A stretch of 64,000 nucleotides of DNA. It comes from Bilabrum cf. latius (lineage: Eukaryota). Both the position numbers and the translations under genes were made by a program. Each line of letters begins with the position of its first letter. Position 1 is the stretch's first letter. This document shows, piece by piece, positions 6,118-64,000 of the stretch. The DNA lies in assembly GCA_965178125.1 (NCBI GenBank), contig OZ237753.1:868001-932000 (forward strand), written 5' to 3'. The notes beneath the pieces are model-generated. The model was not told where the DNA came from. It ran no database searches and was given only the letters and a program-made list of their open reading frames with translations.

Positions 6118-6157
6118 TGCTATCATGCACGTGGCCAAGATCAAGGCGGCCAAGTGA
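3867..6157 (+). CDS. Fimbrin/plastin copy 2, ~651 aa; exons 3867-4127, 4463-6157
   Basis: Two canonical EF-hands (DTDKSGKIDESE, DKDGDKQIDFGE); same CH-domain motifs as copy 1; intron GTGAGA...TGCAG at the same position; ends TGA. Confidence 0.93.
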
Positions 6158-31586: not shown

Positions 31587-31703
31587 TGACACTAGGGGCT
31601 GTTTGGTTGTTGATATAGTCGCCAAACCCAACGGCCGCGAGCATTTCATTGTACCGTGTGGTTGCTGTATTTTATACTCAGCAGCAGTTGCACCTGCACT
31701 AAT

Positions 31704-32777: not shown

Positions 32778-35306
32778 TCATTCGGCCCAGGCGCCGCCCG
32801 TGTAGGTGGCAATGAAGGCGTACATCTCCGCGGCCTCCTGGATGACCATGCTCGTGGGCTTGCCCGACCCGTGCCCCGCATCGATCTCGATCCTGCCGAT
32901 GAGCGGGTTGGTCTGCTTGCCCAGCTTGCAGGCTGTGTGCTGCAGCTCGGCCAGCATCTTGAGGCTGTGGCAGGGGACCACACGGTCGTCATGGTCCGCA
33001 GTCATGATGAGCGTGGGGGGCAGCTGCCTGCCCTCGTCCTCCGTGGGCTTCACGTTGTGCAGTGGAAAGTACCGCAGCATGTACTCGAGGTCTTCTTCCT
33101 TGTCCGGGTCACCGAAATCGGAGCACCACGCGCTGCCGATGGTGTGCTTGTGGAAGGTCACCATGGTGACCGGCACCTGAGACACCACGCAGCCGAAGAG
33201 CTGGGGCTGCTGCAGCATGGTGGCCAGGGTCAGCAGCCCCCCGTTGCTGCCGCCCAGCGAAGCGATCTGCTCGTGGGTGGAGATGCCCCTCCGGACGAGG
33301 TCCCTGTTGACCAGGAAAAAGTCGTCGTAGGACCTCTGCTTGTTCCTCAAGGAGCCCGCCTTGTGCCACTCCACGCCGAACTCGCCCCCTCCCCGGATGT
33401 TGGCCACCACGAAGACACCCCCCACCTTCTGCAAGAAGGCCAGCCGGAAGGGGCTGAAGTAAGGGTTGATGCTGATGTTGAATCCGCCGTACCCGTACAG
33501 AATCGTGGGCGCAGGCTTGCCACTCTCCGCCACCTTCTTGGACCTAGTCACAAAGTAGGGCACCTTGACCCCATCCTCCGCCTCGGCCCACAGCTGCTCG
33601 CTCACAAAGTCGTCCGCGTCGAACCCCGGCACCTCGGCGTCGTACACTCGCTGCAGCAGACAGCTCAAGTCCCCGCTCGCGCCGATCTCGCTCTTGACCC
33701 CGTCCGCTGGCCGGATCGACTGCTCACCCCCTGGCTCGCCCCCCGCCACGGTCAGCTGGGAGAGATCCATGCGCCGGATGGCAGCGGGAGTCACAAAGCT
33801 GGTCAGCTGGAAGAAGATCTCGACGTCCTCCGGCTCCGAGGTGCTGAAGGAGTAGACCGACACGGCGTCGGGCAGGGGGACCTCGAACCGCGCCGCCGCC
33901 GGGTGCTCCAGCGACTGCACGTAGCACTTGTGCTTGCAGTCCTCCGCGTACTTGAGCAGCAGCCAGCCCCGGGGCCCGCCACCCAGGCTCGCGCTCTCCA
34001 GCACGACAGGGCCCTCTGCCTGGGGAACAACCTCCTCTGCGGCTGCCACTGCCTTGTCCAGCTGCTCCCTAGTGGGCTCCGTGGGCGCCCCGCCCTTCCA
34101 CGCGGGAGGCAGGGTGATCCGGACGATCTTGTTCCTCGGCGCGTCCTTGTTGCAGTAGAATAGGTGCGACCCGCTGCCCTTTGGGTAGGTGCCGAGGTAC
34201 TGGTAGAGCGCATCAAAGTTGTCCACTGCCTTGACCAGCCCGAGCAGGGGCGGCTCCGTGCCCGCCTCTTTGGCCGCGCGCACCTCTTCGAGCCACGCGG
34301 GGAACTGTTCCTTCAGGTCGGCGTAGAAGAGCCTGTTGACTGGGTCGCATCCGTCGTCCATCGACACGAGCAGGGTGTCGCTCTCGTCCGAAACGGTGGC
34401 CGAGAAGCGCCAGAGCGGGTGCTCAGGCGTGCGGAACACCACCACGTCTTCGGACTGAGGCGTGTGCAGCCGATGGAAGCACAAGAACTGATTCTCGTTG
34501 GCGTCAGTCTCCGTGCCCTGCTCCAGCACCTCCTCCGCCTCAGCTGCTGCATCATCATCGCCCTCTCCGCCGGCCGCGCCCTCTCCCGCTCCTCCAGCGG
34601 CGGCTCCCGATCCATCTGCATCCTCCCCACCGCTGAGCACCTCTGCTCCAGAGCCCTTGAGCCTTTCCTCCGCACCCTTGATCTTATCCGACGCGGGGTA
34701 CCTTGAGTAGAAGAACCCGCTCCCATCCTTGAGCCACTCGATCTGAGAGAACTTTGCGTGCTCGATCACGTCTTCGGGCAGGTCCTCGCCGTCCGCCGAG
34801 CGCACTTTGATCGTGGTCCAGTCGCTGCCGGCGTGCGAGAGGGCGTACGCGAAAAACTTGCCATCGCGATCCCAAGCAGTGGCTCGAATCGCCGTGGTTC
34901 CCTTCGGATACTCCTTATTCAAATCCATGAATACTTCAGGCTCTGCCATTGATTCAGGGGTGGCTTCTGTGCACCGGTAATGGATGTACTAGTTCAACAG
35001 CCCGGGATTCCGGTAGAAGTAATAGTGGTCTCCATGCTTCGCTGGCGATCCTTGCTTCGCGTAGCTATATTGGCTTTTCATCTGTTCAGCAAATTTGCCC
35101 GCGAGCTCCGCTCCACCCGTTCGTTCTAGATGCTCCTTGTACACCTTATCCTATGCCAACACGTACTCCTTCGTCTATTTCGACGCTGGCTGTTCCAGCC
35201 ACGCATACGGATTCTGTACGCGAATATCACCGGCGACATGGTCATTTTTCCGGCTGTCTTCATCTCTGCTTGCAGGTGGATACTCAATTTTAGTCACAGC
35301 CTTCAT
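32778..35306 (-). CDS. PREP: Prolyl oligopeptidase (S9A), ~842 aa
   Basis: NPYAWLE, GSDW, LYGYGGFNIS, NIRGGGEFG.EWH, GGSNGGL (Ser), DHDDRVVP (Asp), AGHG (His); TAG at 35175, 35151, 34989 in the conserved N-terminal domain; ends TGA. Confidence 0.93.
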
Positions 35307-37092: not shown

Positions 37093-37214
37093 ACTGAGGC
37101 CGCTGCGAAAGGATAGGGAGCCACAAGGTCGTTGCAGGCTGTGGGAACGTCGCGCGGCAGTGCCCTTCATTTTGGTCAACTCAGAAGTCTGTTCTTGCAT
37201 AGCCGCCGCTGGAA

Positions 37215-42628: not shown

Positions 42629-43873
42629 TCACGCCCACACGTGCAGAGTGGTGTCCCAGCTGGCGGTGCACACAGACTTGCCATCCGGAGACACCCCCAC
42701 CCCCGACATGCGCTTCTTGTCCGACTCGCCCTCGGTGCCGGTGTGCTCGATCTTGTGATACATGCGCTCCTTGCTGATAGTCTCCCAGGCCACCGCCTTA
42801 CCATCCTCGTACGCTGCGAAGAGCACCCTTCCGCTCTTGCTGAAATCCAGGCCGTACACGCCCCCGTTGATGGATAGCCCAGAGGCGGCCGAGGACCTAG
42901 GGGCGGCGTACTTGGCCACCTGACCCTTGGACCGGGTGTCGAAGAGCAGGCACGAGTAGTCGTCCGACCCTGTCGCGAAGGAGTACCCGTTGCCCATGAA
43001 GGCCACCGCGTTGATGTCCGACTCGTGCCCGATGTACGAGAGCTGCGGCTTGCTGCCGGCGCGCATGTCCCAGATCAGGGCAGTGCTGTCCACCGAGCCC
43101 GACACGAACTCGTTGGGTCTCTAGGGATTGAGCGCCACGCTGCGGGGGGAACAAGAGAGAGGGGGGGGGGGGGGGTGGGGGGTAGCACGGGGGAATGCGG
43201 CGATGTGGTGCAGCGCAGGGGGCGCATGCCATCCCGTGCCTAGCATCCGATGGTTCGTGCAATATACTCACAACATGACATCTGCGGTGTGCCCCCTGAA
43301 GTCCTGCTTGTTCTTCGCCTTCTCCACGTCCCAGAGAGTGCACGTCCAGTCGCCGCTGCTCGTCAGAATCGTGTTGGTGCCGTCCACGAAGCGGCAGCAA
43401 GACAGGTAGCCTTCGTGGCCTGTCAGTTCGAGCATAGGCTCCTTAACCAATCGTCCGGGCATGTCAAGCTTGTATAGCGAGCAAGTGTTGTCAAGCCCAC
43501 CGGACGCAACCGTTCGCCCTTCCGCAGTTTGGTCGAACGCGCAGGTCATCACCCAGGCGCTCACCAGGTTGACTCCGTACTTCCGAATCTATTCCATTGC
43601 ATCCCATACAATTAGCTTGCCATCCTAACTCGCAGACACGAGGTGCTGACTATCAGCAGCCCAATGCATCGCGTACACTTTGCCGTAGTGGCCAGCAAGC
43701 ACCCTTCTGGCTTCGAACATGAACTCTCCCTCGCCCTTGCTTTTCATGCAGCCAGCAAGCGTATCATGCGCTTTCTCTCGTTTCAACGCCTTCACCCGAT
43801 CCTTCAGGGCCTGCACTTCCTATCTAGCTGCTCGCCGCCTCTCGTACAAATCACTCGATCCAGCAGCTGCCAT
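42629..43873 (-). CDS. GNB: Heterotrimeric G-protein beta subunit, 370 aa; exons 43873-43272, 43139-42629
   Basis: RRVLAGHYGKVYAMHW, LVSAS*DGKLIVWD, AWVMTCAF, GGLDN, GHEGYLSCCRF, TSSGD, GHESDINAV, FATGSDD, FSKSGR, TASWD..L.VWA; TAG at 43820, 43625, 43589, 43121; ends TGA. Confidence 0.96.
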
Positions 43874-44269
43874 AGTACCACTTGTCGACAAGCGGAGCAG
43901 TTCGGCAATTTAAACTATAACAGATCAACGGCACACTACTGCTGCGAATTGTAGTGACTGGATTGGTTGAACCAGCAGAACTGAGATTCTTTTGACCCGA
44001 CCGTGGCTGCCCGGGCACGGGAAGCCTAGAGTCTTGGCTGGTTGGAAAGCTGGGAATCCGGAGCAAAGAGACAGCTGCCTCAATACAAGATCGCACCAAA
44101 GACTCGCAGAAGCGCTCTCGACAGATGGAACAGTATTGCAGACTTTGGCACTTCGTCGTCGCAACAACAAACCAGAGTTTCTTCTAAACAACACGTCACT
44201 TTAGTTCGAAGACAATTCTAGATTTAGTGCTCAACTACAAGAACTTTGCGTTTTTTTTGACATAGTCAG

Positions 44270-45737: not shown

Positions 45738-46520
45738 TCATCTGCCGCCAGCAACACTTGATGCACTACCGCCTCCCTTCCCTTTCCCTTTCCCCTTTCC
45801 TTTCCCCTTCCCACCCCCTGCGCCATCCTTCCTGCGGTACACTGGGTCGGGATCCAGCTCCCTATCGAATCCCTTCTTCCTGAACATGTACTGCCTGTAT
45901 CTCCTCCGCTTCGCCACGCGGGCCATGCCTCGCGCCGCACCAGCCTGGTTGTCCTCCACCAACTGACCCTCTGTGCTGCCGAATCCCTAAAACCCGAGCG
46001 CAACCCGCATCTGATCTTCGACAGAAAGACCTTCCGGGAGCACGAGCTGCTTTGCCCCGACTCCCATGGCCTCCTTCGCGGCCGCTTCTTGCTTCTCTTT
46101 CATGCGCCGAAACGCTTCCACTCCCGTCTCTGGGGATCCCGCGGCCTTGTCTGGGGCCGATGATGCTGCCAACGCTGCCTTCGAACCGCTGTCTTCCTCG
46201 TCGCTATCGTCGTCCAAAAAACGGGGGTCTAGTGCTGGTGCAGGTGGCGCTGCCGGAGCCGATGGTAGGCTTGGAGCTACTCGGTTCCCCGTACCCCCTC
46301 TTGACTGGCTAGTGGAAGCCGCCTATGATTGTTCAAGTCTAAACTAGGCTGTTCTATGCTAGCTTTGTGCTTGAGACGGCATATCGTGACGACCTTCCAC
46401 TCTAGCACGTTTTCCGTTTCGTCCATTGCCGTCATCATCGGCAGGACGGGGTCGTTTCCCGGCTATTGCTTGTCCTGACCATCGATCTAATTTGCTACCG
46501 GGTTGCTAGCTCGAGCTCAT
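45738..46520 (-). CDS. SNRNP27: U4/U6.U5 tri-snRNP 27K-like protein, ~260 aa
   Basis: MRVALGF*GFGSTEG..VEDN...RRRYRQYMFRKKGFDRELD matches the family C-terminus; TAG at 46506, 46359, 46344, 46323, 45987; ends TGA. Confidence 0.82.
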
Positions 46521-46639
46521 TGCTCCGGGAGCAAAATGTGGGAGTGATTTGCAATTTTGGCAATAAAGAACCTGAAAGGAACGTTCGGTGGCATGAAGAC
46601 GCCAGTGCACCGTTGATCCAGCTACGAAGAGCACAACAA

Positions 46640-47629
46640 TCACCTTCCAGATCCAGTTCCTGACGCCGCAGTGGTGCCGCCCCCCTCGGGCTTGAGCTCC
46701 TTCATCCGGTCGTGCATCAGCACGTACTCTCTCGACGACAGCCCAAACCTTAGCGTATCCCTGGCTCGAAGGCTCACGTAACGCGCCGACACAATCTTCT
46801 CCCCGTTCAAAAAGGTGCCGTGAGTGCTTTCCAGGTCGAGGATGTACGGCCGCACCGACTGCAGCTGCGTGCCATCCGGCCGAAACTTGCCAGGCAGGTC
46901 GACCAGTCGGAATTGGAGCACGGCGTGCTGGCTGGAACAGGACGGGTGCAGCGCGTGCACATCCGCAACCCGGGTGTCCCTGCCGATCAGGTAGGCGCTC
47001 TGCTTGCACACGTACAGCGGCCCGTCTCCGACGGGCTCGCTGCCCTTGAACACGTGCAACTGCCAGCGCAGCGACGGAACCCTGGCCTCAGGCGGCTCTG
47101 AAAACCGCATTTGTATGCCTTTATACACGTTGCCATGCTATACATCCTTCTACAGTGCCCCACTGAGTCCAAAGTTTGGTTTGGGCTGCTGCTTCTCAGC
47201 AGCAACAGCAGGTGCTTCTTGTCCGTCGGTACCCCCACTCTCCCCAGCACTAGAGGATGATGCCGCGGCGGCCCCAGACAGTGTTTGATGCTTATTTAAT
47301 GCGGAAGAGTGCGCGGCAGATCCTTTCGCACTGCTAGCGGTATCAAAAGCCGCAGCAGACTAGGATGCAACTGGGGCAGGAAGGCTTGGTCCCTGCGCCA
47401 AAGCCTCCTTACTTGCTAGTTTGGCCTGAACGGTTGCAATAGTAGAAGCAATCACATTTTGCTTTTCCTCTCCGTCGAGCCGTATTCGTTTGGCTGCATC
47501 CATTGGCTGTGAATCCTCGGAGGCCTCCGGCCCCCACCTACGCCGCCGTTTTGTACGTGGCTTTAGGGAGGTGGGATCTCGTGGCGCAGCTGGCTGTAAA
47601 TCGGTACTGCTTGCTGCAGAGGAGGCCAT
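46640..47629 (-). CDS. SNIP1: SNIP1/DAWDLE/Pml1-like FHA-domain splicing factor, ~329 aa
   Basis: KPNFGLSGAL, FSEPPEARVP...W.LHVFKG, QSAYLIGRD, HPSCSSQHAVLQFR, PYILDLESTHGTFLNG, FGLSSREYVL; TAG at 47360, 47150, 47138; ends TGA. Confidence 0.9.
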
Positions 47630-47752
47630 GCTGTAGCAGAACGAGCAGCTAGATCTATTTGTAGATCCTCGAGGCGGTCGGCTCTGGTAGACCGGAATTT
47701 CAAAAGTTGCACAACGTGCACAATCATCAGCGCGCCGGCCGGGCGACCGTAT

Positions 47753-50047: not shown

Positions 50048-50361
50048 AGTTTGCAAATATCTATTAGCTTTCAACTTCTAGTCCTAGTGCTGTGCAAAAC
50101 GGTTTTTGAGGCTTCCACGAGCAGTTGCACTTGGCGCGCTGTCGCATGCTATTTCCGGTTTTGCACCGATGGCCGGCTCGGGAAGCTTTGGTCGCGACAC
50201 ATGCTTCTTGTTGGCTTCTCCGATGTTATTCCATTGATCAGGCAGCGTTCGGTGGCATGGTCCTGGTGAAGACTGGAAATTTCGAGCCTCACCCGGCACC
50301 GCGACACTTGTCGCGCCAGCACGATGGGCAATCGGCAGCAGTTGCGTAGCGAGGCAGGTGC

Positions 50362-51995: not shown

Positions 51996-54900
51996 TTAAA
52001 ACCTAAACCCTCCCGACTTGGCCTCCGGCTTGTGGAACTTGGACGCCTTGCTCGCGTTCTCGCGCATAAAGTCCCGCCGCTGCCTCTGCTTGGCCCGCTG
52101 CCGCCTTACCGCCAGCGCCCGCCCAGGCGCGGCCGTGTCCACCGTGGCCCGCACGGGCACTGGCCTCTCGTACTCGGGCTGCGAGCCCACCACGTCAAAG
52201 ACCCACCGCGAGGAGGGCGAGTCCACCACCAGACGGCCCCTGCACGACTTGCCGTACTCGCGGGGGGCGAACGTCACGATCACCTGCGCGGGCTCCGTGC
52301 CCACCTCTCCCCCGCCCTCGGGAGGCGCAGGGGGCAGAGTGCCCCTCCCGGGATCCACCCTGAGCTCGGCTGCAGCGTCCAGAGTGAAGTACGCCCGGAA
52401 AGGCTCGGGCTCGCTGCCCTCCCCGAATATGTCGATCGCCACGCGCTCCACCGCGCCCACATCTGCCTGAATCTCAAGCACGTCGTCCGGCGCGGGGTCC
52501 GTGGCTCGCACGGAGAAATTGAACCGCCACTGGCCCCCAGTGGACTTGGTGATCACCAGCTCGGCGGGGACATGCATGGGCTTGCGGGGGCGGAAATCCA
52601 TGACGAGCCGGATCGGGTCGTCCGAATCCCTGAGCTTGCCTCCCCTGTTAGCCACCACCACGTCCAGCTGCCTCGCCAGCGCGAGCGTGGCCTCCTCCGG
52701 CATGTCGGCGGGGGGCTCCACTTGCACGTCGAAGGTGCACCGCAGCACCTCGCTCTGCGTGAGACCCGGCAGCGGCAGCGCCACCTCCTCCACCTTGCGG
52801 GACCGAGCCTTGCACGCCAGTTTGACCACCCGCTTGGAGGGGGGTGCCTCGGGGCTGCCCACCAGGTCGTACCTCCACTCCATCCCGCGGGAGGGCAGGC
52901 GCACCACCATGCGCCCGCTGTACTGCCGGATCCGCTGCGGGCTGAAGCCAACCGGCAGCTGCACCTGCGCCCCCGGCCCCAGGCGGATCGTAGAGGGACG
53001 CAGGAGCTGGAACACGGTGCTGGGCCCGTCTAGCGAGCTGCCAGGAACACCTCCTCTGCCCCTTTGGCCAGCCCCCGCCCCTGCTCTTCCGATGCTGGGC
53101 AGTGTTCCACCTCCCGTCGCCTGCTCGTCCCCACTGACCTCCACCGCCACTTCGATCCGCACGGGCTCGTCGAACGGGTTCTAAAAGGGGACCGAGGTGC
53201 TCGAGCTCAGCCCGGCAACCGCACGCAGCTGCACCGTCCGCACCTCAGTCTCGGGCGCCTCCCCCTCCCCCTGCAGCCGGAACTCCCACTTGCCAAGCCG
53301 GTCCGAGTTGAACACCAGCAGGCCGTTCTCCGCCCGCCCCACGCTTGAGGGGTTGTAGGTCACGCGCACGTCCTGTGACGAGAGGGGAGCCAGCTCCACG
53401 CCCGCCGGATCCACCGTGAAGTTGCGCTCGTTGTCCAGCGAGGCAGCCGCGAGGGCGGCATACCGCGTGGGGTTGTCCAGAGTCACCAGACAGGACGCGG
53501 AGCTACCCACCGGGGCGCGGAGCACAGGCACCTCGACTGGTGGAGCGGGCGCCGCCTCCATCTCGAGCTTGTACCACAGCTGCCCCGCCCGCTCGCCGGT
53601 GAACGTGACGGCCCCCTGCTCCTTGCCGGCCTCCAAGGGGCAGTACAGCAGCTCGTACACCTTGTCTTGTTCCCTGGGAGCGAGCGCCAGCACGGGATCA
53701 CCCACGAGCCCCTCGCCCTCCAGCGCCACCTGGAACTCCGCCGGCTCGTCCAGCGGGTTGTCGATCTGCAGGCGCACCCTAGCAGCCTTGCGCACGGTGG
53801 CCCGCAGCTGAAGGGTGTCCTCGGGCGCTGGGGGCTTCACCTCGGCCTCCACGGCCCACCAGCGGAACCGGCCCGAGCGGTCGTCCACGAACCGAACGGT
53901 CCCGCGGTACAGACCTCCGGCCAGGGGCGCAAAGGTGAGCTCGTATCCGCCCTCCGCGGGCGTGCTCTTGCCCGTCCTGGGGTCGGTGTCCCCCGCCCTT
54001 AGGGCCAGAGAGGGGTCCCCGCTGGCGCCGATGAGGTCCGATTCCACCCTCAGGGTGGCAGGGGCCGCACTGAAGCCAGTCACCGGGAGCTCCTTGACGA
54101 CAGTCTCCCGCGCGCTGCACTCGATCTTGAGCGTGCCCTCGGCCGCGGGGGCCTCCCCTACCCCAGTCAGCACGTACTCGATGTGCGGCATCTTGGGGCG
54201 CGTCTGGTTCCGCACGATGAGGCGCGCCCTCTCGACCGTGGTCCAGTCCGGCTTGAACTTGAGCGGGATGCTTGCCGTCTCACCCGCGTTGACGAGGAAG
54301 GTGGACGGCACCTCGAAGTGGTGCCCCCGCGGCGACAGCTGCCTGCCTTCCCTCGGACTCTTGGCGTCGCTGCCGAAGAGCTGGCTGGCCTCCTCGCCCA
54401 TGCTCTCCTCCCTCACCTCCAGCACCCGCAGCTCGCACCGCATCAGCCACTGTTCCCTGGACTGGTTCACCACAGGCAGGGGCTGCTCTACACTGGCTCC
54501 CGCGGGACACCTCAGGGTCAGCTCCCTCTTGAGCGGGGGCGCTCGCAGGGCGACATCCAGGTCGTACACCCGCGTCTCGCGGCGGGATGCCAGCACCAGC
54601 CGAGCGGGGTACTTGCCGGGGGCTTTCGGCAGGATGGACACGCGCGCCACGCCCTCCCAGGCGGCCGCCTCTCCGCCCCGCTGCGCCGCGGCCGCCGCAT
54701 CATCGTCCTCGTCCTCCGCCGCCAACACGGCCCCCGTTTCGGTGGCGCCTAGGCGCTCCGCTCTGTCCTCTGCATCCCGCTGCTCCTTGCGCGTGGCCAT
54801 CCGAGAGACAACGGCGAAGTCCTGCCATCCGGGTGAGATGGCCCCGTCCGCGCGGTAGAAGGGCGAATCGATAGAGATCTGGTAGGTCCACGGCCGCAGC

Positions 54901-57900
54901 AGGTACCGCGCCACCCGCCTCACCTTGGCTCCCGCCCGGGTGAGCGCCTCGCTGGGACGGCCCCCTCCCGTGCTGCCCAGCTGCATCGAGCTCAGGGAAC
55001 CCACCGTGAGCACGCTCCCACCCTGCAGCAGCTGAGACGGGCGCTCCCTCAGCCCGGCCCCGGGACCCCCCGCCTCGTCCCCCTGAAGCTCCCCCCCCAC
55101 GGAGGGGTCAAGCAGGGAGGGGTCGATCTGCCGGAGCCTACCCACCAGCGCGTCCAGCCGCTGCCTCTCCTTTACCAGCCTCTTCTCTTGTTCCCTGGCC
55201 TGCTCCTCTCTCTCTTCCTTGGGCAGCCGACGCCCGGCCTCCTGCAGGGCTTCCTTCAGCTGCTGGCTGGCCCCCACCACGCGGAGGGACAGGTGCTTCG
55301 CCAGCTCCTCCTCGTCCACGGCAGCACTGGAGCTCGAGTCGTCCGTCAGCACAGCCTTGAGGGTGCCCGAGGAATCGGGCAGGCCCGCCGTCGCGCGGAC
55401 CTCGTACACCACCTCGCCCAGCGTCTCGTCAACGAGTTCCACCGCGCAGGCGTGCGGGCCCGCCACGAATGGGAGGAACTGCACGCCTAGGACCCTGGAT
55501 CGACCCTTGCCCAGGTGCAGGACCTGCGAAGGGGTCCTCAGGTGGAAGGGCGCGGGCCAGTACCCGTCCGCGGTCAGGGGCCCTGCCTCGTTCCTGTGTC
55601 TCGCCCACTCGCCCACCCGGAACATCCGACCCTCCTCCCTTCGCAGCTCGGCCTGCGCCTGCGCCGCCCGTGCAGAGGAACCGGGCCTGCTGCGCCTCTG
55701 GATGCCGGCCACGCGCGCAGGCGAAGTGGCTCGCCCCACGCTGCCGCTGCCGTGTGACAGCTCGGATCCCGGACGGGTGCTACCGGGCCCAGCACCGGCC
55801 GCCCCTGCGCCGGAAGCGGCAGCACGCCTAGCCTTGGGATCCACACCTGCCCCTGCTTCTGCCCCTGTTCCCTGCTCGTCCTCGTCGTAGGTGGGGACGT
55901 TCCTTCCCTCGGGTGCCGAAGGCGGAATGGGGATGAGCCTGACGCGGAACTTGCCCTCCCTGTCGAAGGGATTGGTCACCTGCAGCTCGTGCTCCACGGG
56001 CTTGTACATGGGCGTCTGCAGGCGCACCACAGCGGCCGGCGGCCGCTCCAGCACCCTAGTCTGCAGCGCGAACACGAGTGTCATGGCCTGCACCGGCCCG
56101 TTGCGCTGCGAGCGGAGCGTGAGACGTGCTCGCGCGGGCCGGGACAGCCTGGCAGTCGCCACCACCTGGATGCTGCGCTTCTGCCCAGGGGGAAGCGTGA
56201 CTCGGTTGGTGGTGGCCTCGAAGACGCCCTCGTCTCCCGGCTCTGCCGCCACTGTGACCTCGTAAATGACTGCCTTGTTGGAGGGGTTGCTCAGCTCAAT
56301 GCTGCGCATGGCCTTCTCCCCCATGCGAGCGTCGAAACGGATGGTTTGCCTGGGGACCAGCTGCGGGATCGTGCGGTAGAGGTGCAGGAGAGCCAGCAGG
56401 CACAGTCTCGTGTGCCCCTCGCCCATCCTAGCCCGATCCCCTAGCGAATGGGCCAGCACGCCCCCCGTGTCGAAGATGGCAGTCTCCAAAGGAGCCGCCT
56501 CCGGGGGCAGCACCCCATCCAGATCCAGGCCGGTCGGCGCTCCATTCGCCACCCCGCCGCCATCCACCACACCCCCCCGTTCCCCGGTCTTGCCCTCGCC
56601 CGCCCCATCCGCCCCACTCGCCGCCCTCGACCCCCCGCCGCGACTGCCGTGCTCCACCGACATCGCATCGTCCGCTCCGCCCCCGAACTCGGCCGCCGCC
56701 GCCGCCGCCGCCGCCGCCCTGATCATGGCCGCCTCCTGCTCCTTCCTCTCCTCCCTCGCCCTCTCCCTCGCATCTTGCACCCGCCGGAGCCCCACCCACT
56801 CGCCCTCGACCCCCTCGGGGGCGGGGCCCAGGAAGAGCTCCCGCAGAGGCACGGGGGGTCTCACGTCTAGCAGCTCCAGCGCGTCATAGATCGCGCCCCA
56901 TGCCAGCTCCAAGTCCTCTGGACCCTCAGGACAGGCCTTGAAGCCCACCAGGGGCTGCCCCTCCTCACCCAGGAAGGGGCAGTGGCTCCGCAGGATGCCA
57001 GCCACCACCGTACCATCCCTCAGGTCACGGTGCGGGTCCACCACCCGCCGGGGCATGTGCGTGAACACCTGGTTGTGGTGGTACTGCGCCCACCGCAGCA
57101 GAACGAGCTCGGACACCGCCATGACGTTCGAAGGGGCGAGCAGCCTGTCCGGTGCGAAGGCCCGCCGGGTGGTCCGCGCCACTAGCTGCTGCACCTCGGT
57201 GGATGCCTCTTTCAAGGGATCCCCCTCCTGCTCCTCCTGGGCCCCCGCCCCGCCCCGCCTCTTCCTCCTCTCGTCCACGATCCGGGCGCGCTCCTCGTCC
57301 TGCACCCGCCGCGCGTCCTCGATGGCAGCCATAGCCCGCTGGCACGCCGCATCTGGCTGCATGCCGGGCACCTGGGCGAGGCTCTGCAGCGTGACCCTCT
57401 GCAGCACGAACACGCGCACGATCTGCATGCAGGTCCACGCCCACGCGCTCGTGCTCACCTCGGGGTACTCTTGCCGCAGGGACTTCCTCTTCCTCGCCTC
57501 TGCTGTGAGAGACCTGTACTCCAGCATGGGGGCGCCCAGGCCCCGCCCGTCGATGCCCCCGGGGGCCATGCGAGCCCTCACGAAGTCGTCTCGCGGGAGC
57601 AGGTCCTCGGGCCGGATGTGGTGCAGGAGCGCGCCGTGGGCCTTGAGGAAGGTCAGCGCCTTCAGGGACTGCTGGTACAGCACCAGCGTGCGGGCCTTGC
57701 CCCCGCGGGGCAGCTGATCCGGCGCACTAACCCCGCCGCCTGCGCCGCCCCGGCCCGCCCCAGTGGACCCGCTGGACCGAGCCCTTCCGCGACTGCGGCT
57801 GCGGTTCCGGCGGCCGGGGCTCCCCGGGCCGCTGCTGGCCACGGACCCGCCTCCAGCCACGTCTGCCCCCCCCTCCCCCCGCCTGCCCCTCCCAGGCAGC

Positions 57901-60900
57901 TTGCTCCCGGACAGAGCCTCCACCAAGTCCCAGATGGGTGCCCCGGCCGTCTCGGTGATGCTGCGGGGGAAGTACTCCAGCGGTGACTTGAGCAGCACGG
58001 CATTGAGCCACAGCCGGAGCAGCTCCGTCTCCTCCTGGTCCACGTGCCCCGGCATGCCCATGTCTGGAGGCAGCAGCTGGCCGTCCGGTCCGCTGGGCAA
58101 GGAACCCACGTAGCTCTTGCTGCCCCCCTTCTTGGAGGGGTCCTCACCGGAGGCTCTCCTACCCTTGGAGCCGCCTCCGCGGGCACCGGCCCCGCCAGAG
58201 GAGCCCGCGCTTCCACGTCCCGACCGACCCGCGCCACCGCCATTTCCACCAGCTGCTCGGCCCTTGGCTGGCCGCAGCAGGGGCCGCAGGAACGTGAGCG
58301 CCTGCTTGCGGTCCGTCCCTTGCGGAACCGCGCACGGCGCCGCACCAGGTGCCGCCATGAGCTCCAGCTCCCCCGCCTTGGCCTTGAGGTAGGGCACCGT
58401 GCTGAGGAGGCTCGAGTCCGTCACGCCAGAGACCGGCATGGGGTACCTGTTGCCCCTGTCGTCGTAGAAATCGATCGTGGCCGTGAAGGCCATGGGCTTC
58501 CTTGACTTGAAGGTGACCATGACCGGCAGAGCGGGCCGGCTGAGGCTGATGGTGGTGCCCTCGGGGAAGTAGATCTGCAGGGGGATCTTGGTCGGGTGCC
58601 TGTCCGTGGGCACCTTCCAACGGAGCTGGAGGTTGTCGAACCCGTGTCCCTCGATCAAAAAGGAGGACCAGGACATGCAGCCCAGAGGCACGGGCGGCAA
58701 CGTGGTCTCTGCCCTATCAAAGGCCAGCTGTGGCGCGACCCCCTGCCCCTCCATCTCCAGCACCACCACGCTCTCCCCGGACGGGACGGGCGGCGCGAAC
58801 CCGTCCATCAGCGCGTCCACCACCTGCCTCGCGTAGGACTCCCCCCCGAGATCCGCTGGCACGGGGGGCAGCTCGACCTCCTCGTCATCCGCGGCCCCGC
58901 TCTCCACGTGTGCCAGCAGCAGCCTCAGCGCGCCCTCTGCCTCGTCCCTCCTGCGCCTGGCCTCTGGCACGCTGTCGGCCAGGAACAGAGGCACTGCGGC
59001 CACGTACTGCTGAAAGCCCTGGGGCGCGAACAGCACGCCCAAGTCGCACGACTCGCTCGGCACCAGGTCGCCCTCCCCTGCCTCCACGCGGAAGGCCCGC
59101 CCCCCGGGGTCGCCCGCCTGGGCCGCCGCCTCTAGCCAAAACTGGCCCGCCGCGAACGCAACGGTGCCCGTCTCCTGCCGCGACTCGACCGTGACGTGCT
59201 GGCGGTAGGGCGCGCGCCGGGTCGGGTCCGGGTGGACGACCTTGAGCTAAAAGTTGCAGAGGGTCGGCTTGAGCACCAGCCTCGGGGGCACCGCCACTCC
59301 GGTGACCGTCCGGGCCAGCATCACCTTCGCCTTGGAGGGAAGCATGCCGAGGGCGCGCAGCGGCAGCATGAACTGCAGCCGCTGCGCCTCGTACGGCCTG
59401 TACTCGAGCTGCAGCCGCAGCACCTTGCCCGGTGCCATGCGGATCCTGAACTTGCGGGGACCCATGTCCGCCTTGGATGCTCGCTCACGCTCGAGGCCGT
59501 CCCCGGCGCCACGCTCGCCACCCTCCTCCCCTACCTCATCGCCGCCGTCCTCCCCATCCCCATCTTCGTCTGCCTTGATCGCGCTCGCATCCACCCCCGA
59601 TTCGACGACTTCCTCGTCAACCATGGAGGCGCCCTCTGCCACGAACACGCTGCCTTCCTCCTGCAGCCCAGCGCCCAGGCTCTCCTGGCTGCCCTCCTCG
59701 CCCACGCCGCCCCTCCCCGGCCGGGAGCTCCTCGGCAGCCTCGGCGGCAGCACGGCCATCTGGTCGAAGCTCCTCAGATTCACCACCACCTCCGCGGGGA
59801 TGCGCCCCGAGTTCTCCAGGGTCAGCGGCAGCCTCGCCCTGGAGCCCACGGACACCCGCCCGAAATCGAAGCTCGGCTCCAGGACCCGCACCTCGGGCGA
59901 CACCGCCTCTGCCTCCACCCCGATGGTCAGGTCGGCTCCCGCCCGAACCCGGATGCACACCTTGTCCTCGGCTGCTCGGAACGTCTTCTCTTTGCTGGAC
60001 ACGAGCCGCACCATGACCTGCATCTCGTCTCCAGGCCCGATCCGGCCCGAGGACGGGACCAGAGAGACGCCCTCCGGCGCCTCGTCCAGCTTCCACACCG
60101 CCGCGGTGGCCCCCTGGTTGGCCAGCATCACGGCAGTCTCGCGCTGCACGCCCACGGACACGGCCCCGAACTCCACCCTGTCCGCAGACGCGATCACGTC
60201 GGGCTCCTCGAGGTCCGCCTGCAGCTGCACCCGCACGGGCGGCTCCGAAGTGGACCCGCCCCTTACCAGCAGCGACGCGTGGGCCTGCACGGGCAGACCG
60301 ACCTACGGGCGAAACTTGACCCTCGCGATCGCGGTCTGCCCTGGCTGGATGCTGCCCGAGGGCGGGTCGATGACAAAGGCCGTCTCCTTCGGCTTGGGCC
60401 TCCACACGTACTCGGCCACGGCGTTGCCAGGGTTGTGAAGCTCGATGTCCTCGTGCAGGCCAAAGTCGGTGCTGCCCTCCGGAAAGCGAAAGACGATGTG
60501 ACGCTTGGAGGGCACCACCTCTACCGGCTTGACCACGGCGGTGCACATGAACCGGAACACGTGCTTCCCGTTGATCGTGTACAAAATCTCCCGCTTCATC
60601 TCAACCGCCTCGCGCTGGGGCACAAACACCAGGTCGAAGCCTGCCTTGCGGCCGGTGGGCACCACCTGAGAGGCCGGGAATGACTCTGCAAACTCCTCCG
60701 CGCCCTTGGGCATCACCAGAGACGCCAGCACCACCTGGGCCAGGTCGTTCGCCACCGCGAAGCACTTGGCCGTCCTGCTCCTCACGTTGACCTCGCCAAA
60801 GTCCACCACCCGAGGCCCCGCCTAGATCCCGGCCAGCAGCTCGGGGCCCAGCTTGAGACCGCAGTCGGTGGCCTCCGCCTGCGTGGTGGGCTGCGGCTTG

Positions 60901-63599
60901 AACTTGGCCACGATCAGCTTGTTCTGGTCGAACGTGTGCCGCACCGCACCCGGGCGCACGATGGGCTTCCCGTCCGTCCCGATCGGCCGCTGCATCCAGA
61001 GGTCGTCCTCGGCGGTGGGCACGTCCAGCCGCGGGCCCTCCATGTCGTCCTTCCCGTCCTCCATGCCCAGAGAGGTCATGTCGTCCCAGCGAGCCAGACG
61101 ACGGGCCTTGTGCGCGGCGCGCGTCTCCCGGGCCGTGGACCGCTTGCGGATGATCGAGTTGTACTTGTCCTTGTGCCCATGCTTGGCAGCGAGGTCGCCC
61201 AGCGTGTACGTGTAGGCCTGGTCCGTGGTCACCGACCCGGCGTGCACCGTGTCATCTTCCTCGGCCAGGCGCTCCCACGGCAAGGGCTTGACTCGCTTGC
61301 TGCCACCGAGGCCCGCCGTGGTCCCGGCCTGGCCACCGGCCGCCGTTCCTCCCCCAGCCAGCCCCCCACCGGCCCCCATGCGCGCCATGGTGGCCGCACC
61401 CATGGCAGCAGCCGTGGCAGCCGTCACGTCCTCGTCCTGGATCGAGGTCTCGGTCGGCAGCACCGTGCCCTTGTACCCTGGGATCGCCTTGAGCGCCCTC
61501 TGCGCGCTCTCCCTGTCCCCGGGCACCACCTGCAGCTGAGGCTTGTGGTCGGACAGCGGCAGACCGGGGCCCCTGGATCGTCTGAGCAGCCCGTCCGGCC
61601 CCGGCGGCGGCTGCTTGACCGCGTGACCCTCCAGCCTCATCTCCACGTCGACGAGGCCCTGGGCCCCCACTATGTGCATCCTGCGGCGGTGCACGCCAAG
61701 GCTGTGCGGGAGGAATGTCACGAGCACCTTCTGCGACCCCAGCGGCTGCACGCTGCCCTTCCGCGGCTTGATCCCGTAGTGCGCGGGGGCCTCTGCCCTC
61801 CACGGCATGGGCACTGACTCGCTGGGGTTCCTCAGGCGCACCCACACGTCCCTCCTCGCACCCACAGCGCAGGGCCCGAAAAACACGTCTCGGTGGCTGA
61901 CCTCCAGCGAGGGCCGTACCAGCATGCCGCGCACAGGCAGGACAACCCTCTGCTTGGTGGCCGCGCTCAGCAGGAGGATCTCCTGGGTCACGGCCTCCTG
62001 CAGCGGAGGGGGCACGAACCGCGCCAGCTCGTCTGGGAGTGCATCTGATCCGCTCGACGCGCCTGGGGCCAGCCCTCCCACCGGCACAGCTGCCCCCATG
62101 TCCTCGCCAGGACCCCCTTCCCCGCCCTTGCCTTCCTGCTCCCCGGCAGTCGCCGCCCCCGTCGCGCCTTTGCCTCCTCCTCCTCCTCCTCCGCCCCCGG
62201 ACACGAGCGTTCTTCCCATCGAGGCCGCCCGCTGGCTGAGGCCCAGCACCTTCCGCGCCTGCGCCTTGAACGGGACCGGCTTCTTCCGCTCCACCGGCCG
62301 GAAGGTGACTAGCAGCTCCTGCTGGCCCAGCGAGGGAACAGTGGCCTCATCCGGTGTGACGATCACGTCCCTCTAGCCAGGACCCAGAGACACCGCGCCA
62401 CCGGAGCCGGACCCACCCGCGCCAGCACCCGCACCCGCGCCTGCGCCTGCCCCGCCGTCGCCCCCCTGCACCAGCCCCTCTGCGGGGTCAAACACCTCTG
62501 CCTCCCCCGGCTTTCTCCTCCTAAACTGCTTGTCCACGGCAACTCGGAAAGAGGCCTCCTCGGGTCCGTTGTTCACCACGAGCAGCTTGAGCGTCCGCTC
62601 CCTACCCACCATGACCGGCTCGAAGGCGACCTCGTCCACCTGCCCCTTGCCCTCGGGCCACACCACTTCTAGAGAGTGCGCCAGGACACTGGCGCTCACA
62701 TCCACTGCGATGGGAGGCGCCCTGGATCCCTCCACCTCCAGCGTGGCAAGCGCCCTGAACACGTCCACTCGGTCTGCGTCCAAAGTGACCACCACCTCGT
62801 CCGTCGGCGCGCTGCTCCTAACCCTCCGCTGCTGCGCGGGAGTCACTGCCTCGTTGAGGTTCAGGCCCGCCGCCACGGGGTTGGCGGGGAGCTCCCCCTC
62901 GCTGGGGGAGAAGCTCAGGGGCAGCTCGCTGTCCCACCGGAGCCGCCAGCGAGACCCCGCCTGGCCGAGGCTGGCGATGCGCAGCCTGCGCTGCACCTTT
63001 CTGCCCACAGTCACATGCCCGAAATCCACCGTCGGGGATACCGGCTCGATCCGGGGGCAGGGCGCCAGGCCCAGCACAGGCACTCGAACCTCAAGGTCGC
63101 CGGACACGACCCGCACCTCGTCGCGGACGTCACGGCCATCCTTGTCCACCTCGATGAGCACCTCTACTGTCTGTTCTAGCCCAGGGGCGATGCCAGCGGT
63201 CGGCTTGTAGTTGGCCCGGATGTTAGGGTGTGTCGGGGGCACCACAGCGATGCGTCGCCGTCGGCTTCCAGAATTTTGAAGGCGAATCTCGGAGCGAAAT
63301 GACAGGCCCGGACGAATGCCGTGAAACACAATAGCTGCCGGAAATACGTGCAGCGGCCCAGCTTTGGCGGTTTCCCGTGTGGCGGCAGTCAGCACGTCAA
63401 TGTCGCCGATAGAGGGTGCGCCGTCCTGCAGTACCTATCTTGGAAGCAGCCGTGACCTCCGCACCTAACTGCTGTCATCTCCAGTGACACTTGACTGACT
63501 ATGAGCCTTCCCGCGCCCTGCCGAACTTTGGACGCTCCCTGAACTATTCGGATAGCGAGATCCGGCACCTGAGCCCGAGCTTGCCCTGGATTGGGACAT
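51996..63599 (-). CDS. CFAP47: Cilia- and flagella-associated protein 47 (multiple ASH/Ig-like domains + calponin-homology domain), apparently intronless, ~3,867 aa
   Basis: Repeated xDFGxV...NxG ASH motifs; CH domain ELVLLRWAQYH...DLRDGTV; LHLYRTIPQLVPRQTIRF...IELSNPS; C-terminal FAPREYGK; TAG at 63465, 63435, 62373, 60822, 60303, 59247, 53181; ends TAA. Confidence 0.88.
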
Positions 63600-64000
63600 C
63601 ACTATAATGCAGTGAAACGATTGGAAGTGTAATTAATATGAAATTATTGCTGGAAAGTAGATTGCTTTCCCGATACGCCTCAGCCGTGCCGGTCCGCGGC
63701 CAGATAGCGGTGCCAACGGACACGCCAAAAAAATGGAGCCTAACAACGAACCTTCGATTCACTGCACGGGGTTCGGCGGCGTCCAAGTCACTCAAACGGC
63801 ACAATATAGATGGCAAGTTCCTGATTATGTGAGCCTGAGTCCATAAAGATGAAATAATTCAGCGATCGTGTTGGTGAATTGACCCGCAAATGACCCTGGA
63901 GCGCGAATTTGACTCGAGAATACGCATAAAACCGCCGCCTTTGGGTTGATATTGCCGCTCTGTTAGAAGAGAAAATAGCGAACGGTGCATTTCATCATTT

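What the first reader, a model, noticed from the sequence alone, without database searches (positions are those of the whole stretch)
43121..43822. G-beta identifies the amino acid: TAG sits at the conserved Gln of LVSASQDGKL
Seen: the minus strand reads GTG TCT GCG AGT TAG GAT GGC AAG CTA ATT GTA TGG GAT = V-S-A-S-*-D-G-K-L-I-V-W-D (TAG at 43625). The coiled coil reads A-R-*-E-V-Q-A-L-K (43820). Established: G-beta subunits have LVSASQDGKLI(V/I)WD and, in animals, LRQEAEQLK. Both positions give Gln. Two more TAGs (43589, 43121) are at variable positions.
Basis: partly seen in the sequence, partly recalled or inferred. Interest (0 to 1): 0.85.

Follow-up and report, generated by a model that had tools for sequence, protein, structure and literature searches.

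The report
UAG read as glutamine, nuclear code
This eukaryote's nuclear genes, including a well-conserved and expressed G-protein beta subunit, use the stop codon TAG to encode glutamine while TAA and TGA still end genes, a rare but already described kind of genetic-code change.

Summary
The minus strand carries a two-exon G-beta gene: ATG at 43873, a GT..AG intron at 43271-43140, and a TGA stop at 42631-42629. The TAG at 43625-43627 sits in a column that is Gln in 33 of 33 G-beta representatives.

Three lines of evidence go beyond the finding:
- **Relative:** a metagenome contig (L001) holds the orthologue at 93% amino-acid and 79% nucleotide identity, dN/dS about 0.02. Three of the window's four TAGs face CAG or CAA there, and both of its own TAGs face CAG here. 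Its stop is TAA where the window has TGA.
- **Transcripts:** transcript-sized contigs from three runs skip exactly the 132-nt intron and keep every TAG unchanged.
- **Other genes:** 55 in-frame TAGs lie in 16,199 codons of other ORFs, two of them 3,500-3,900 codons long. In-frame TAA occurs only at ORF ends.

A prolyl oligopeptidase gene adds two more Gln-conserved columns under TAG (66 of 77 and 76 of 78).

The code is UAG=Gln with UAA and UGA as stops. This is known from Iotanema and a few ciliates. This genome looks like neither, so it may be a new lineage. The tRNA and eRF1 basis could not be tested because no genome is held.

The parts
43272..43873 (-). G-beta exon 1: ATG at 43873-43871, 200 codons plus 2 bases. 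Holds the N-terminal helix and WD repeats 1-3, with three in-frame TAGs.
   Evidence: Translation. GNB1 match E about 1e-53 over residues 15-200. Pfam WD40_Gbeta positions 8-188 of 340.
43140..43271 (-). Intron of 132 nt, GT..AG, with a poly-C tract and an in-frame TGA just inside the donor.
   Evidence: Contigs of runs X5, X6 and X7 skip exactly 43140-43271. The orthologue L001 has an intron at the same codon position, 173 nt long, GT..AG.
42629..43139 (-). G-beta exon 2: 169 codons after the split Phe codon, with one in-frame TAG, plus the TGA stop at 42631-42629.
   Evidence: Translation. Matches GNB1 residues 197-339 of 340, so the TGA lies at the orthologous C-terminus. Pfam positions 197-339 of 340.
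43625..43627 (-). TAG, residue 83, at the Gln of the SASQDGKL motif.
   Evidence: Column is Gln in 33 of 33. CAG in the L001 orthologue.
43820..43822 (-). TAG, residue 18, in the N-terminal helix.
   Evidence: Faces Q in GNB1. Q in 7 of 21 representatives with a residue there. CTA (Leu) in L001.
43589..43591 (-). TAG, residue 95.
   Evidence: Column is Thr in 27 of 33 and Gln in 1 of 33, but CAA (Gln) in the close orthologue L001.
43121..43123 (-). TAG, residue 207 (residue 6 of exon 2), in a variable loop.
   Evidence: Column is Thr in 12 of 22 and Gln in 0. CAA (Gln) in L001.
32781..35306 (-). Prolyl oligopeptidase gene, 842 codons, ends in TGA. Three in-frame TAGs at residues 44, 52 and 106.
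   Evidence: Pfam Peptidase_S9_N and Peptidase_S9. PDB alignments. Columns: residue 52 is Q in 66 of 77, residue 106 is Q in 76 of 78, residue 44 is E in 58 of 77 with Q in 0.
51999..63632 (-). FAP47/CFAP47-like flagellar gene: one open frame of 3,878 codons with 7 TAGs, ending in TAA.
   Evidence: Matches Chlamydomonas FAP47 at E 1.4e-216 and human CFAP47 at 8.2e-111.
7124..17701 (+). Giant cadherin-domain gene: an open frame of 3,526 codons with 12 TAGs, ending in TGA.
45741..47752 (-). SNRNP27-like gene (45741-46187, 1 TAG) and SNIP1-like FHA gene (46643-47752, 3 TAGs).
   Evidence: Pfam. PDB alignments put these TAGs at non-conserved positions: Ala and Glu in human.

Best explanation
The window is nuclear DNA of a GC-rich, intron-poor, flagellated eukaryote whose genetic code reads UAG as glutamine. 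UAA and UGA remain the stop codons. The G-beta gene at 42629-43873 (minus strand) is an ordinary, expressed and strongly constrained gene in which 4 of 11 glutamine codons happen to be TAG.

Shown here:
- TAG is a sense codon in many genes.
- TAG stands for Gln.
- TAG survives unedited in spliced transcripts.
- TAG behaves as a synonymous partner of CAG.

Inferred from what is established for other UAG-reassigned eukaryotes (PMC5304391, section 9 read):
- UAG is decoded by a tRNA-Gln with anticodon CUA. This anticodon cannot pair with UAA. It probably arose from a duplicated tRNA-Gln(CUG) gene.
- The release factor eRF1 has lost efficient recognition of UAG.
For: 1. **Conserved columns.** TAG lies under Gln columns in G-beta (residue 83, 33 of 33) and in the oligopeptidase (residue 52, 66 of 77; residue 106, 76 of 78; Q in 3 of 3 solved structures for both). 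Of 549 columns scored, 4 are at least 80% Gln, and 3 of these are under TAG. Over the 7 TAG columns the log-likelihood is -17.1 for Q, -26.2 for E and -26.2 for T.

2. **Close relative.** L001 is 93% identical in protein and 79% in DNA. 193 of 371 codons differ, 167 of them synonymous if TAG=Q, and dN/dS is 0.024. The codon pairs, window then L001, are:
- residue 83: TAG / CAG
- residue 95: TAG / CAA
- residue 207: TAG / CAA
- residue 76: CAG / TAG
- residue 233: CAG / TAG
- residue 18: TAG / CTA

3. **Transcripts.** One contig in each of runs X5, X6 and X7 (two studies) skips exactly the 132-nt GT..AG intron. None differs by a single letter from the window, so the TAGs are in the spliced RNA. 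The contig of DNA run X1 keeps the intron.

4. **Many genes.** There are 32 in-frame TAGs in 11,283 homology-supported codons and 23 in 4,916 further long-ORF codons. This includes frames of 3,526 and 3,878 codons with 12 and 7 TAGs.

5. **TAA and TGA are stops.**
- In ORFs delimited by TGA alone, every in-frame TAA lies within the first 90 or last 72 codons.
- GC3 falls from 0.78-0.88 to 0.42-0.65 right after the TAA in 4 of 4 such ORFs, with no such drop after TAGs.
- The G-beta stop is TGA here and TAA at the same codon in L001.
- G-beta ends at the GNB1 C-terminus.

6. **Synonymy.** TAG/(TAG+CAG) follows TTG/(TTG+CTG), the other first-position T/C synonymous pair, across local GC3 bins: 0.27/0.36, 0.155/0.153, 0.037/0.079 and 0.042/0.053.
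Against: - Not every TAG sits in a Gln column. G-beta residue 95 faces Thr in 27 of 33 and residue 207 faces Thr in 12 of 22. Oligopeptidase residue 44 faces Glu in 58 of 77 with no Gln. FAP47-like residue 937 faces Val or Ile, SNRNP27 faces Ala and SNIP1 faces Glu. The close relative has Leu at G-beta residue 18. These are what any codon shows at non-invariant sites, but they mean the amino-acid call rests on three strongly conserved columns plus the relative.
- The runs called RNA are only guessed to be RNA. One is flagged 'probably DNA'.
- The TAA counts are partly circular, because ORFs were cut at TAA.
- No tRNA, eRF1 or peptide evidence could be obtained. No genome is held. The one tRNA call in the window is unrelated and doubtful.
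- Whether some genes end in UAG cannot be told from this window.
Confidence: 0.92

Rival explanations
1. Both UAA and UAG encode glutamine (the common 'UAR=Gln' code, NCBI table 6 type). TAA is simply too rare to appear in a GC-rich genome.
For: CAA makes up only 11% of CAA+CAG in the homology-supported set, so sense TAA would be rare. The ORFs were delimited at TAA, which makes the zero count partly circular.
Against: - If TAA:TAG equalled CAA:CAG, about 3.9 plus 6.2 in-frame TAAs would be expected, and none is seen.
- All in-frame TAAs in TGA-delimited ORFs lie at the ORF ends.
- Composition changes right after them in 4 of 4 cases.
- Fimbrin 1 ends in TAA within a few codons of where its tandem paralogue ends in TGA.
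- The relative's G-beta stops with TAA where the window stops with TGA.
Confidence: 0.04
2. UAG is ambiguous. It is read as Gln inside genes but still terminates translation in some contexts, for example near the 3' end of the mRNA, as in Condylostoma or Blastocrithidia-type codes.
For: - TAGs are strongly biased to the 5' end: 21, 14, 6 and 3 per ORF quarter in nine genes.
- In those nine genes, the eight that carry a TAG have their last TAG at least 163 codons before the stop; the ninth, fimbrin 2, has none.
Against: - The bias is matched by the TTG/CTG ratio by quarter (0.198, 0.100, 0.068, 0.065 against 0.193, 0.121, 0.048, 0.029 for TAG/CAG) and by a 5'-to-3' rise in GC3. Composition alone explains it.
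- Outside those nine genes, SNRNP27 has a TAG 82 codons before its stop, and ORF 50365-51276 has one 3 codons before TGA.
- No gene in the window needs a TAG stop.
Confidence: 0.08
3. The TAGs are not decoded. The gene is a pseudogene, the TAGs are assembly errors, or the RNA is edited U-to-C before translation.
For: Under the standard code the gene is interrupted four times. A gene caller using the standard code truncated the oligopeptidase of a near-identical relative (P0153 starts just after the last TAG).
Against: - dN/dS of 0.024 against an orthologue with saturated synonymous sites.
- TAGs sit at different codons in the two orthologues.
- Four runs give identical letters, and the spliced contigs keep TAG. 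That leaves no sign of editing or assembly error.
- The same pattern holds in more than 10 genes.
Confidence: 0.01
4. UAG is a sense codon for an amino acid other than glutamine, for example Glu, Leu, Ser or Thr. UAG as Leu and as Ser are reported in other lineages.
For: Some TAG columns are dominated by Glu (58 of 77) or Thr (27 of 33). One TAG faces Leu (CTA) in the relative.
Against: - Glu, Thr and Leu are absent from the invariant G-beta column (0 of 33) and from oligopeptidase residue 106 (0 of 78).
- The likelihood favours Q over the next candidates by about 9 natural-log units on 7 columns.
- 5 of 6 orthologous codon pairs are TAG/CAR.
Confidence: 0.02

Closest known systems
Nuclear code of the fornicate flagellate Iotanema spirale (UAG=Gln, UAA and UGA stops). 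PMC5304391: abstract passages, background passages and section 9 read.
   Same: UAG alone is reassigned to glutamine, UAA is kept as a terminator, and it is not a ciliate. The share of UAG among Gln codons is similar: about 8% reported there and 7.5% in the homology-supported set here.
   Different: UAA is the primary stop in I. spirale. Here TGA ends 11 and TAA ends 4 of 15 ORFs. This genome is 55-70% GC. I could not place the organism, and no fornicate appeared among the named best hits. That case rested on a transcriptome. Here there is genomic DNA, spliced transcript contigs and an environmental relative.
UAG=Gln-only codes in ciliates: Protocruzia tuzeti and two phyllopharyngean lineages. 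PMC11687900: discussion passages read.
   Same: The same reassignment, with UAA not reassigned to Gln.
   Different: The window is a contiguous 64-kb stretch, and one run's contig reaches 212 kb, with 11-kb single-exon genes and high GC. It does not resemble gene-sized ciliate chromosomes (that description is recalled, not tested). It has a heterotrimeric G-beta and cadherin-domain genes.
NCBI translation table 15 (TAG=Gln). The table's content is recalled, not taken from a call. PMC9523058's abstract in the listing calls TAG-to-Gln 'genetic code 15'.
   Same: Its codon table is the one that translates this window correctly.
   Different: The table was defined for another organism group, and it is also used for some phages.
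UAR=Gln codes: hexamitid diplomonads, oxymonads, ulvophycean green algae, many ciliates and Amoeboaphelidium protococcarum. Passages in PMC5304391, PMC11687900 and PMC6299283.
   Same: A stop codon reassigned to glutamine, presumably through a mutated tRNA-Gln.
   Different: In those codes UAA is also Gln. Here TAA behaves as a stop.
Other UAG-only reassignments: the rhizarian exLh (UAG=Leu) and Scotinosphaera (UAG=Ser). Passages in PMC5304391 and PMC11687900.
   Same: UAG is uncoupled from UAA.
   Different: A different amino acid. Leu and Ser are excluded here by the conserved columns.
Heterotrimeric G-protein beta subunit (GNB1, transducin beta).
   Same: An N-terminal helix plus a WD40 propeller aligned end to end with GNB1 (residues 11-193 and 197-339 of 340). 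The motif SAS-Q-DGKLI-WD is conserved.
   Different: About 40-50% identity to the nearest representatives. It has a 17-residue insertion in the last third. Four of its Gln codons are TAG.

Membership tests
Nuclear genetic code with UAG=Gln and UAA/UGA as stops (table 15 pattern) | In-frame TAG inside conserved, functional protein-coding genes | tested here: met
   55 TAGs in 16,199 codons of 16 coding stretches. G-beta dN/dS is 0.024 against its orthologue.
Nuclear genetic code with UAG=Gln and UAA/UGA as stops (table 15 pattern) | TAG positions correspond to glutamine in homologues | tested here: met
   Gln in 33 of 33, 66 of 77 and 76 of 78 at three conserved columns. 5 of 6 TAG-containing codon pairs with the 93% orthologue are TAG/CAG or TAG/CAA. 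Q is favoured by about 9 log units. Four of the 7 columns are not Gln-dominated.
Nuclear genetic code with UAG=Gln and UAA/UGA as stops (table 15 pattern) | TAA still terminates | tested here: met
   No internal TAA. TAA occurs only at ORF ends. GC3 drops after TAA in 4 of 4 ORFs. TGA here is TAA in L001 at the G-beta stop. This is indirect, as no protein or ribosome data exist.
Nuclear genetic code with UAG=Gln and UAA/UGA as stops (table 15 pattern) | TGA still terminates | tested here: met
   TGA lies one residue after the aligned GNB1 C-terminus and at the end of the oligopeptidase alignment. There are 0 in-frame TGAs against 384 off-frame in 11,283 codons.
Nuclear genetic code with UAG=Gln and UAA/UGA as stops (table 15 pattern) | TAG present in the mature mRNA (not edited or spliced out) | tested here: met
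   Spliced contigs of X5, X6 and X7 carry the four TAGs with 0 differing letters.
Nuclear genetic code with UAG=Gln and UAA/UGA as stops (table 15 pattern) | Cognate tRNA-Gln with anticodon CUA | not testable with these tools
   No genome is held. The window has only one doubtful ARAGORN call, Ser(GGA), with no Rfam tRNA match.
Nuclear genetic code with UAG=Gln and UAA/UGA as stops (table 15 pattern) | eRF1 altered in its stop-codon recognition motifs | not testable with these tools
   eRF1 is not in the window and no genome is held.
UAR=Gln code (table 6 pattern) | TAA also used as a Gln codon | tested here: not met
   0 internal TAA where about 10 would be expected at the CAA:CAG ratio. TAA marks ORF ends.
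Heterotrimeric G-protein beta subunit | Full-length match to the G-beta-specific profile (N-terminal helix plus seven-blade WD40 propeller) | tested here: met
   PF25391 WD40_Gbeta positions 8-188 (177.7 bits, cut-off 150) and 197-339 (113.2 bits) in the two exons. GNB1 alignments.
Heterotrimeric G-protein beta subunit | Forms a dimer with a G-gamma subunit and binds G-alpha | not tested
   No G-gamma or G-alpha gene was found or sought. No genome is held.

The most novel reading that the evidence does not exclude
This is an independent origin of the UAG=Gln / UAA=stop code in a free-living, GC-rich, intron-poor flagellate lineage that is neither a ciliate nor a fornicate. At least one environmental relative, diverged to synonymous saturation, shares the code, so the code is old and fixed in a clade. 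Here TAG has become a freely drifting synonym of CAG, and its usage follows a steep 5'-to-3' GC gradient within genes. This makes the lineage a tractable genome-plus-transcriptome system for asking how UAG is uncoupled from UAA.
Probability: 0.45. Interest if true: 0.72.

Novelty: new member of a known kind. Interest (0 to 1): 0.62.

Why it matters
Departures from the standard nuclear code are rare. Cases in which UAG and UAA have different meanings are rarer still (PMC5304391 and PMC11687900, passages read).

Practical consequences:
- Any annotation of this genome with the standard table truncates or splits a large share of its genes. A near-identical relative's oligopeptidase in a public protein set begins just after the last TAG.
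- The 3,500-3,900-codon genes here would be broken into 8 to 13 pieces.

Scientific interest:
- A non-ciliate with genomic DNA, transcript data and a diverged relative sharing the code would allow direct tests of the tRNA-Gln(CUA) and eRF1 predictions.

Tried and rejected
- **Whole genome:** not held. tRNA-Gln(CUA), eRF1 and paralogue searches were therefore impossible.
- **Counting long ORFs under alternative codes**: uninformative. In GC-rich DNA, making TGA a sense codon lengthens ORFs most.
- **Rfam scan of the window**: found nothing. The ARAGORN tRNA-Ser(GGA) at 7786-7868 has no Rfam tRNA match even at E up to 1, and I treat it as a false positive.
- **Placing the organism:**
  - The ESM Atlas search with fimbrin gave only broad eukaryotic clusters.
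  - The best named fimbrin hits are 42-45% identical (Triparma, Balamuthia, Symbiodinium, dictyostelids).
  - The best oligopeptidase hits are 36-40% identical (an unnamed EukProt transcript, then plants). A text search for that transcript's accession prefix found no paper.
  - The lineage stays undetermined.
- **Sequencing runs:** no listed holder is on record as RNA. The RNA status of X5-X7 is inferred from the splice joint.
- **Literature searches** for a described GC-rich non-ciliate with UAG=Gln only returned only Iotanema, Protocruzia, phyllopharyngeans and the UAR=Gln lineages. This does not show that the organism's code is unpublished. The library lacks many journals, and supplements were closed, including the eRF1 alignment of PMC5304391.
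- **A 3'-proximal avoidance of TAG** as a sign of residual termination: the TTG/CTG control shows the same gradient, so I do not claim it.
Full report
**What is at the coordinates**

The minus strand of 42629-43873 holds a G-protein beta-subunit gene. Its layout is:
- ATG at 43873-43871.
- Exon 1 down to 43272: 200 codons plus two bases.
- An intron at 43271-43140: 132 nt, GT..AG, with a TGA just inside the donor.
- Exon 2 at 43139-42632.
- A TGA stop at 42631-42629.

The two exons match the G-beta-specific Pfam profile WD40_Gbeta at positions 8-188 and 197-339 of 340. The scores are 177.7 and 113.2 bits against a cut-off of 150. They also match bovine/human GNB1 at residues 11-193 and 197-339 of 340, so the TGA falls at the orthologous C-terminus.

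My first two translations were one base out of frame and were redone.

**Reading the columns in G-beta**

I searched exon 1, with X at each TAG, against 1.84 billion representative proteins. Of the 150 best hits, 117 are long multi-repeat WD40 proteins and were left out. I kept the 32 hits shorter than 520 residues, plus the first 400 residues of P0045 because it aligns from the N-terminus. I aligned these 33 with each exon.

| TAG site | Column content |
|---|---|
| Residue 83 (SAS-X-DGKL) | Gln in 33 of 33 |
| Residue 18 | Gln in 7 of 21 that have a residue there; Gln is the commonest, the rest scattered |
| Residue 95 | Thr in 27 of 33, Gln in 1 |
| Residue 6 of exon 2 | Thr in 12 of 22, Gln in 0 |

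**A second gene**

The prolyl oligopeptidase gene at 32781-35306 (minus strand; Pfam) has three TAGs in its conserved N-terminal domain.
- Against solved structures, residues 52 and 106 face Gln in 3 of 3 shown. Residue 44 faces Glu in one and Gln in two.
- I aligned 82 homologues: the best 82 of the 110 found, with the 28 weakest left out, using the first 330 residues of each. Residue 52 is Gln in 66 of 77 and Glu in 11. Residue 106 is Gln in 76 of 78. Residue 44 is Glu in 58 of 77 with no Gln.
- Over the seven columns from both genes, a simple column likelihood gives Q -17.1, E -26.2 and T -26.2.
- Of all 549 columns scored in these alignments, only four are at least 80% Gln. Three of those lie under TAG and one under TTG.

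TAGs in less conserved places face other residues, as any codon would:
- Ala in human SNRNP27.
- Glu in human SNIP1.
- Val or Ile, and Asp or Gly, in Chlamydomonas and human FAP47/CFAP47.

**The close relative**

A scan of metagenome contigs with exon 1 returned one near relative, L001, a contig of 2,145 nt.
- Its gene has the same two-exon structure, with an intron of 173 nt at the same codon.
- It is 93% identical in protein but only 79% in DNA.
- 193 of 371 codons differ, and 167 of those are synonymous if TAG is Gln. pS is 0.72, pN is 0.056 and dN/dS is about 0.024.

Both copies are therefore under strong purifying selection. The six codon pairs that involve TAG are listed in the For line, point 2. 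In summary:
- Residues 83, 95 and 207: TAG here faces CAG or CAA in L001.
- Residues 76 and 233: CAG here faces TAG in L001.
- Residue 18: TAG here faces CTA (Leu) in L001.

So 5 of 6 pairs are exchanges between TAG and a standard Gln codon, in both directions. This includes the site whose deep column is Thr. The relative ends its gene with TAA at the codon where the window has TGA.

**Expression**

I laid four public runs that hold the stretch.
- The likely source DNA run X1 covers the stretch in one contig with the intron present.
- Runs X5, X6 and X7, from two studies, each have one contig of 1,647-1,795 nt.
- Each of those contigs begins at 44119-44133, runs 57-208 nt past 42400, and skips exactly 43140-43271. 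None shows any other letter or indel.
- The neighbouring divergent gene shows a splice donor at 44347 in the same runs.

These runs are not on record as RNA. The tool guesses RNA for two and 'probably DNA' for one. The exact GT..AG skip and the transcript-sized contigs are what make me read them as cDNA. On that reading the gene is transcribed and spliced, and the TAGs are neither edited nor removed.

**The rest of the window**

I delimited ORFs by TGA alone and found very long frames. Pfam and PDB searches identify most of them.

| Gene | Coordinates | Codons | TAGs |
|---|---|---|---|
| Cadherin-domain giant | 7124-17701 | 3,526 | 12 |
| FAP47/CFAP47 orthologue | 51999-63632 | 3,878 | 7 |
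| Fimbrin 1 (tandem pair) | 1420-3519 | 700 | 1 |
| Fimbrin 2 (tandem pair) | 4469-6154 | 562 | 0 |
| Prolyl oligopeptidase | 32781-35306 | 842 | 3 |
| GST/metaxin-like | 35467-37242 | 592 | 1 |
| Pyrimidine 5'-nucleotidase | 44635-45519 | 295 | 0 |
| SNRNP27-like | 45741-46187 | 149 | 1 |
| SNIP1-like | 46643-47752 | 370 | 3 |

Codon counts:
- The homology-supported set of 11,283 codons has 32 TAG, 351 CAG and 43 CAA. TAG is 7.5% of the putative Gln codons.
- The same set has no in-frame TAA or TGA, against 40 and 384 off-frame.
- A further 4,916 codons of long ORFs without family matches add 23 TAGs.

**TAA and TGA as stops**

- In the TGA-delimited ORFs, every in-frame TAA lies within the first 90 or last 72 codons. 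TAGs are spread through the interiors.
- In the four ORFs where a TAA precedes the TGA at the 3' end, GC3 falls from 0.78-0.88 in the 60 codons before it to 0.42-0.65 after it. No such step follows the 19 TAGs of the two giant genes.
- With the TGA/TAA exchange at the G-beta stop in L001, I take TAA as a terminator.
- The zero count of internal TAA is partly circular, because I cut the frames at TAA. About 10 would be expected at the CAA:CAG ratio.
- By the same construction, 11 of 15 ORFs end in TGA and 4 in TAA.

**TAG as a synonym of CAG**

TAG and CAG differ at the first codon position, as do TTG and CTG. Across bins of local GC3 the two ratios move together.

| Local GC3 bin | TAG/(TAG+CAG) | TTG/(TTG+CTG) |
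|---|---|---|
| Below 0.6 | 0.27 | 0.36 |
| 0.6-0.75 | 0.155 | 0.153 |
| 0.75-0.9 | 0.037 | 0.079 |
| 0.9 and above | 0.042 | 0.053 |

Genes here show a rise in GC3 from 5' to 3', and TAGs follow it: 21, 14, 6 and 3 per quarter in nine genes. The TTG/CTG control shows the same gradient. I therefore attribute the 5' bias to composition, not to residual termination. The lowest-GC3 bin may include some untranslated leader where start codons are not defined.

**Mechanism**

- **Shown:** TAG is a sense codon, it means Gln, it is present in the spliced transcript, and TAA and TGA end genes.
- **Inferred:** decoding is by a tRNA-Gln with anticodon CUA, the only anticodon that reads UAG but not UAA. 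It would derive from tRNA-Gln(CUG) by one anticodon change. It would come with an eRF1 that no longer recognises UAG efficiently, and perhaps an adapted glutaminyl-tRNA synthetase. These are the predictions made for Iotanema (PMC5304391, section 9 read).
- **Not testable here:** no genome is held, and the window has no credible tRNA.

**Comparison with what is known**

- UAG=Gln with UAA kept as a stop is described for Iotanema spirale (PMC5304391, abstract and passages). It is also described for Protocruzia tuzeti and two phyllopharyngean ciliate lineages (PMC11687900, discussion passages).
- UAG alone goes to Leu in a rhizarian and to Ser in Scotinosphaera (same papers).
- UAR=Gln is more common, for example in Amoeboaphelidium (PMC6299283, passage).

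The window's features do not suggest a ciliate or a fornicate, but I could not place the organism. Those features are:
- 55-71% GC.
- 11-kb single-exon genes.
- G-beta, cadherin-domain and FAP47 genes.
- TGA as the commonest stop.

Its proteins are only 36-52% identical to anything named. The exceptions are unnamed environmental or run-derived relatives at 86-97% identity (P0263, P0153, L001). Five literature searches found no description that fits. The library is incomplete and supplements were closed.

**Verdict**

The kind of code is already known, so I file this as a new member of a known kind. If the lineage proves to be a new one, this would be a further independent origin of the rare UAG/UAA uncoupling, with unusually good material for testing its mechanism.

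Noticed in passing
window 1420-3519 (+) and 4469-6154 (+): Two tandem fimbrin/plastin paralogues with four CH domains each and no EF-hands in the frames read. They are nearly identical over most of their length. One ends in TAA and the other in TGA, a few codons apart.
   Followed up: partly
window, nine genes: 42632-43873, 32781-35306, 4469-6154, 51999-63599, 7124-17701, 27120-31925, 22978-26937, 37098-39338, 46643-47629: GC3 rises from the 5' to the 3' end within genes. G-beta goes 0.58, 0.75, 0.92, 0.85 by quarter, and the oligopeptidase goes 0.65, 0.80, 0.88, 0.92. TAG and TTG usage fall in parallel. The cause of the gradient is unexplained.
   Followed up: partly
window 7786-7868 (+): ARAGORN calls a tRNA-Ser(GGA) inside the giant cadherin-domain reading frame. 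Rfam finds no tRNA there at the gathering score or at E up to 1. It is probably a false positive.
   Followed up: yes
window about 17300-17650 (+), approximate, read from the translation: The cadherin-domain giant protein ends with about eleven tandem copies of a 10-residue unit (GGSLSASTEL) after a predicted membrane-spanning stretch. Further upstream it has about six repeats of a roughly 110-residue unit carrying an 'ETRRGDV' motif that matches no Pfam family.
   Followed up: no
window 44239-44347 (+) and downstream: The pyrimidine 5'-nucleotidase (UMPH-1) gene is transcribed divergently from G-beta. The inferred transcript starts are about 110-150 nt apart. Transcript contigs show a splice donor at 44347, and the HAD motif exon lies in another frame at about 44352-44606. 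The gene therefore has at least two introns, and the two in-frame TAAs at its 5' end are intronic.
   Followed up: partly
protein P0153, relative of window 32781-35306: A 97%-identical oligopeptidase in a public protein set is 725 residues long and begins at the first Met after the last TAG of the window's gene. This is how a gene caller using the standard code would truncate it.
   Followed up: partly
window 43150-43200 (-), inside the G-beta intron: A C-rich tract of about 25 nt (a poly-C run, then CTCTCTCTT) precedes the acceptor. The orthologous intron in L001 is 173 nt rather than 132.
   Followed up: no
window 22978-26937 (+), 27120-31925 (-), 37098-39338 (+), 47756-50584 (-): Four long open frames of 747-1,602 codons with 3-7 TAGs each and coding-like GC3 match no Pfam family. 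They are rich in low-complexity Ala/Gly/Glu runs.
   Followed up: no
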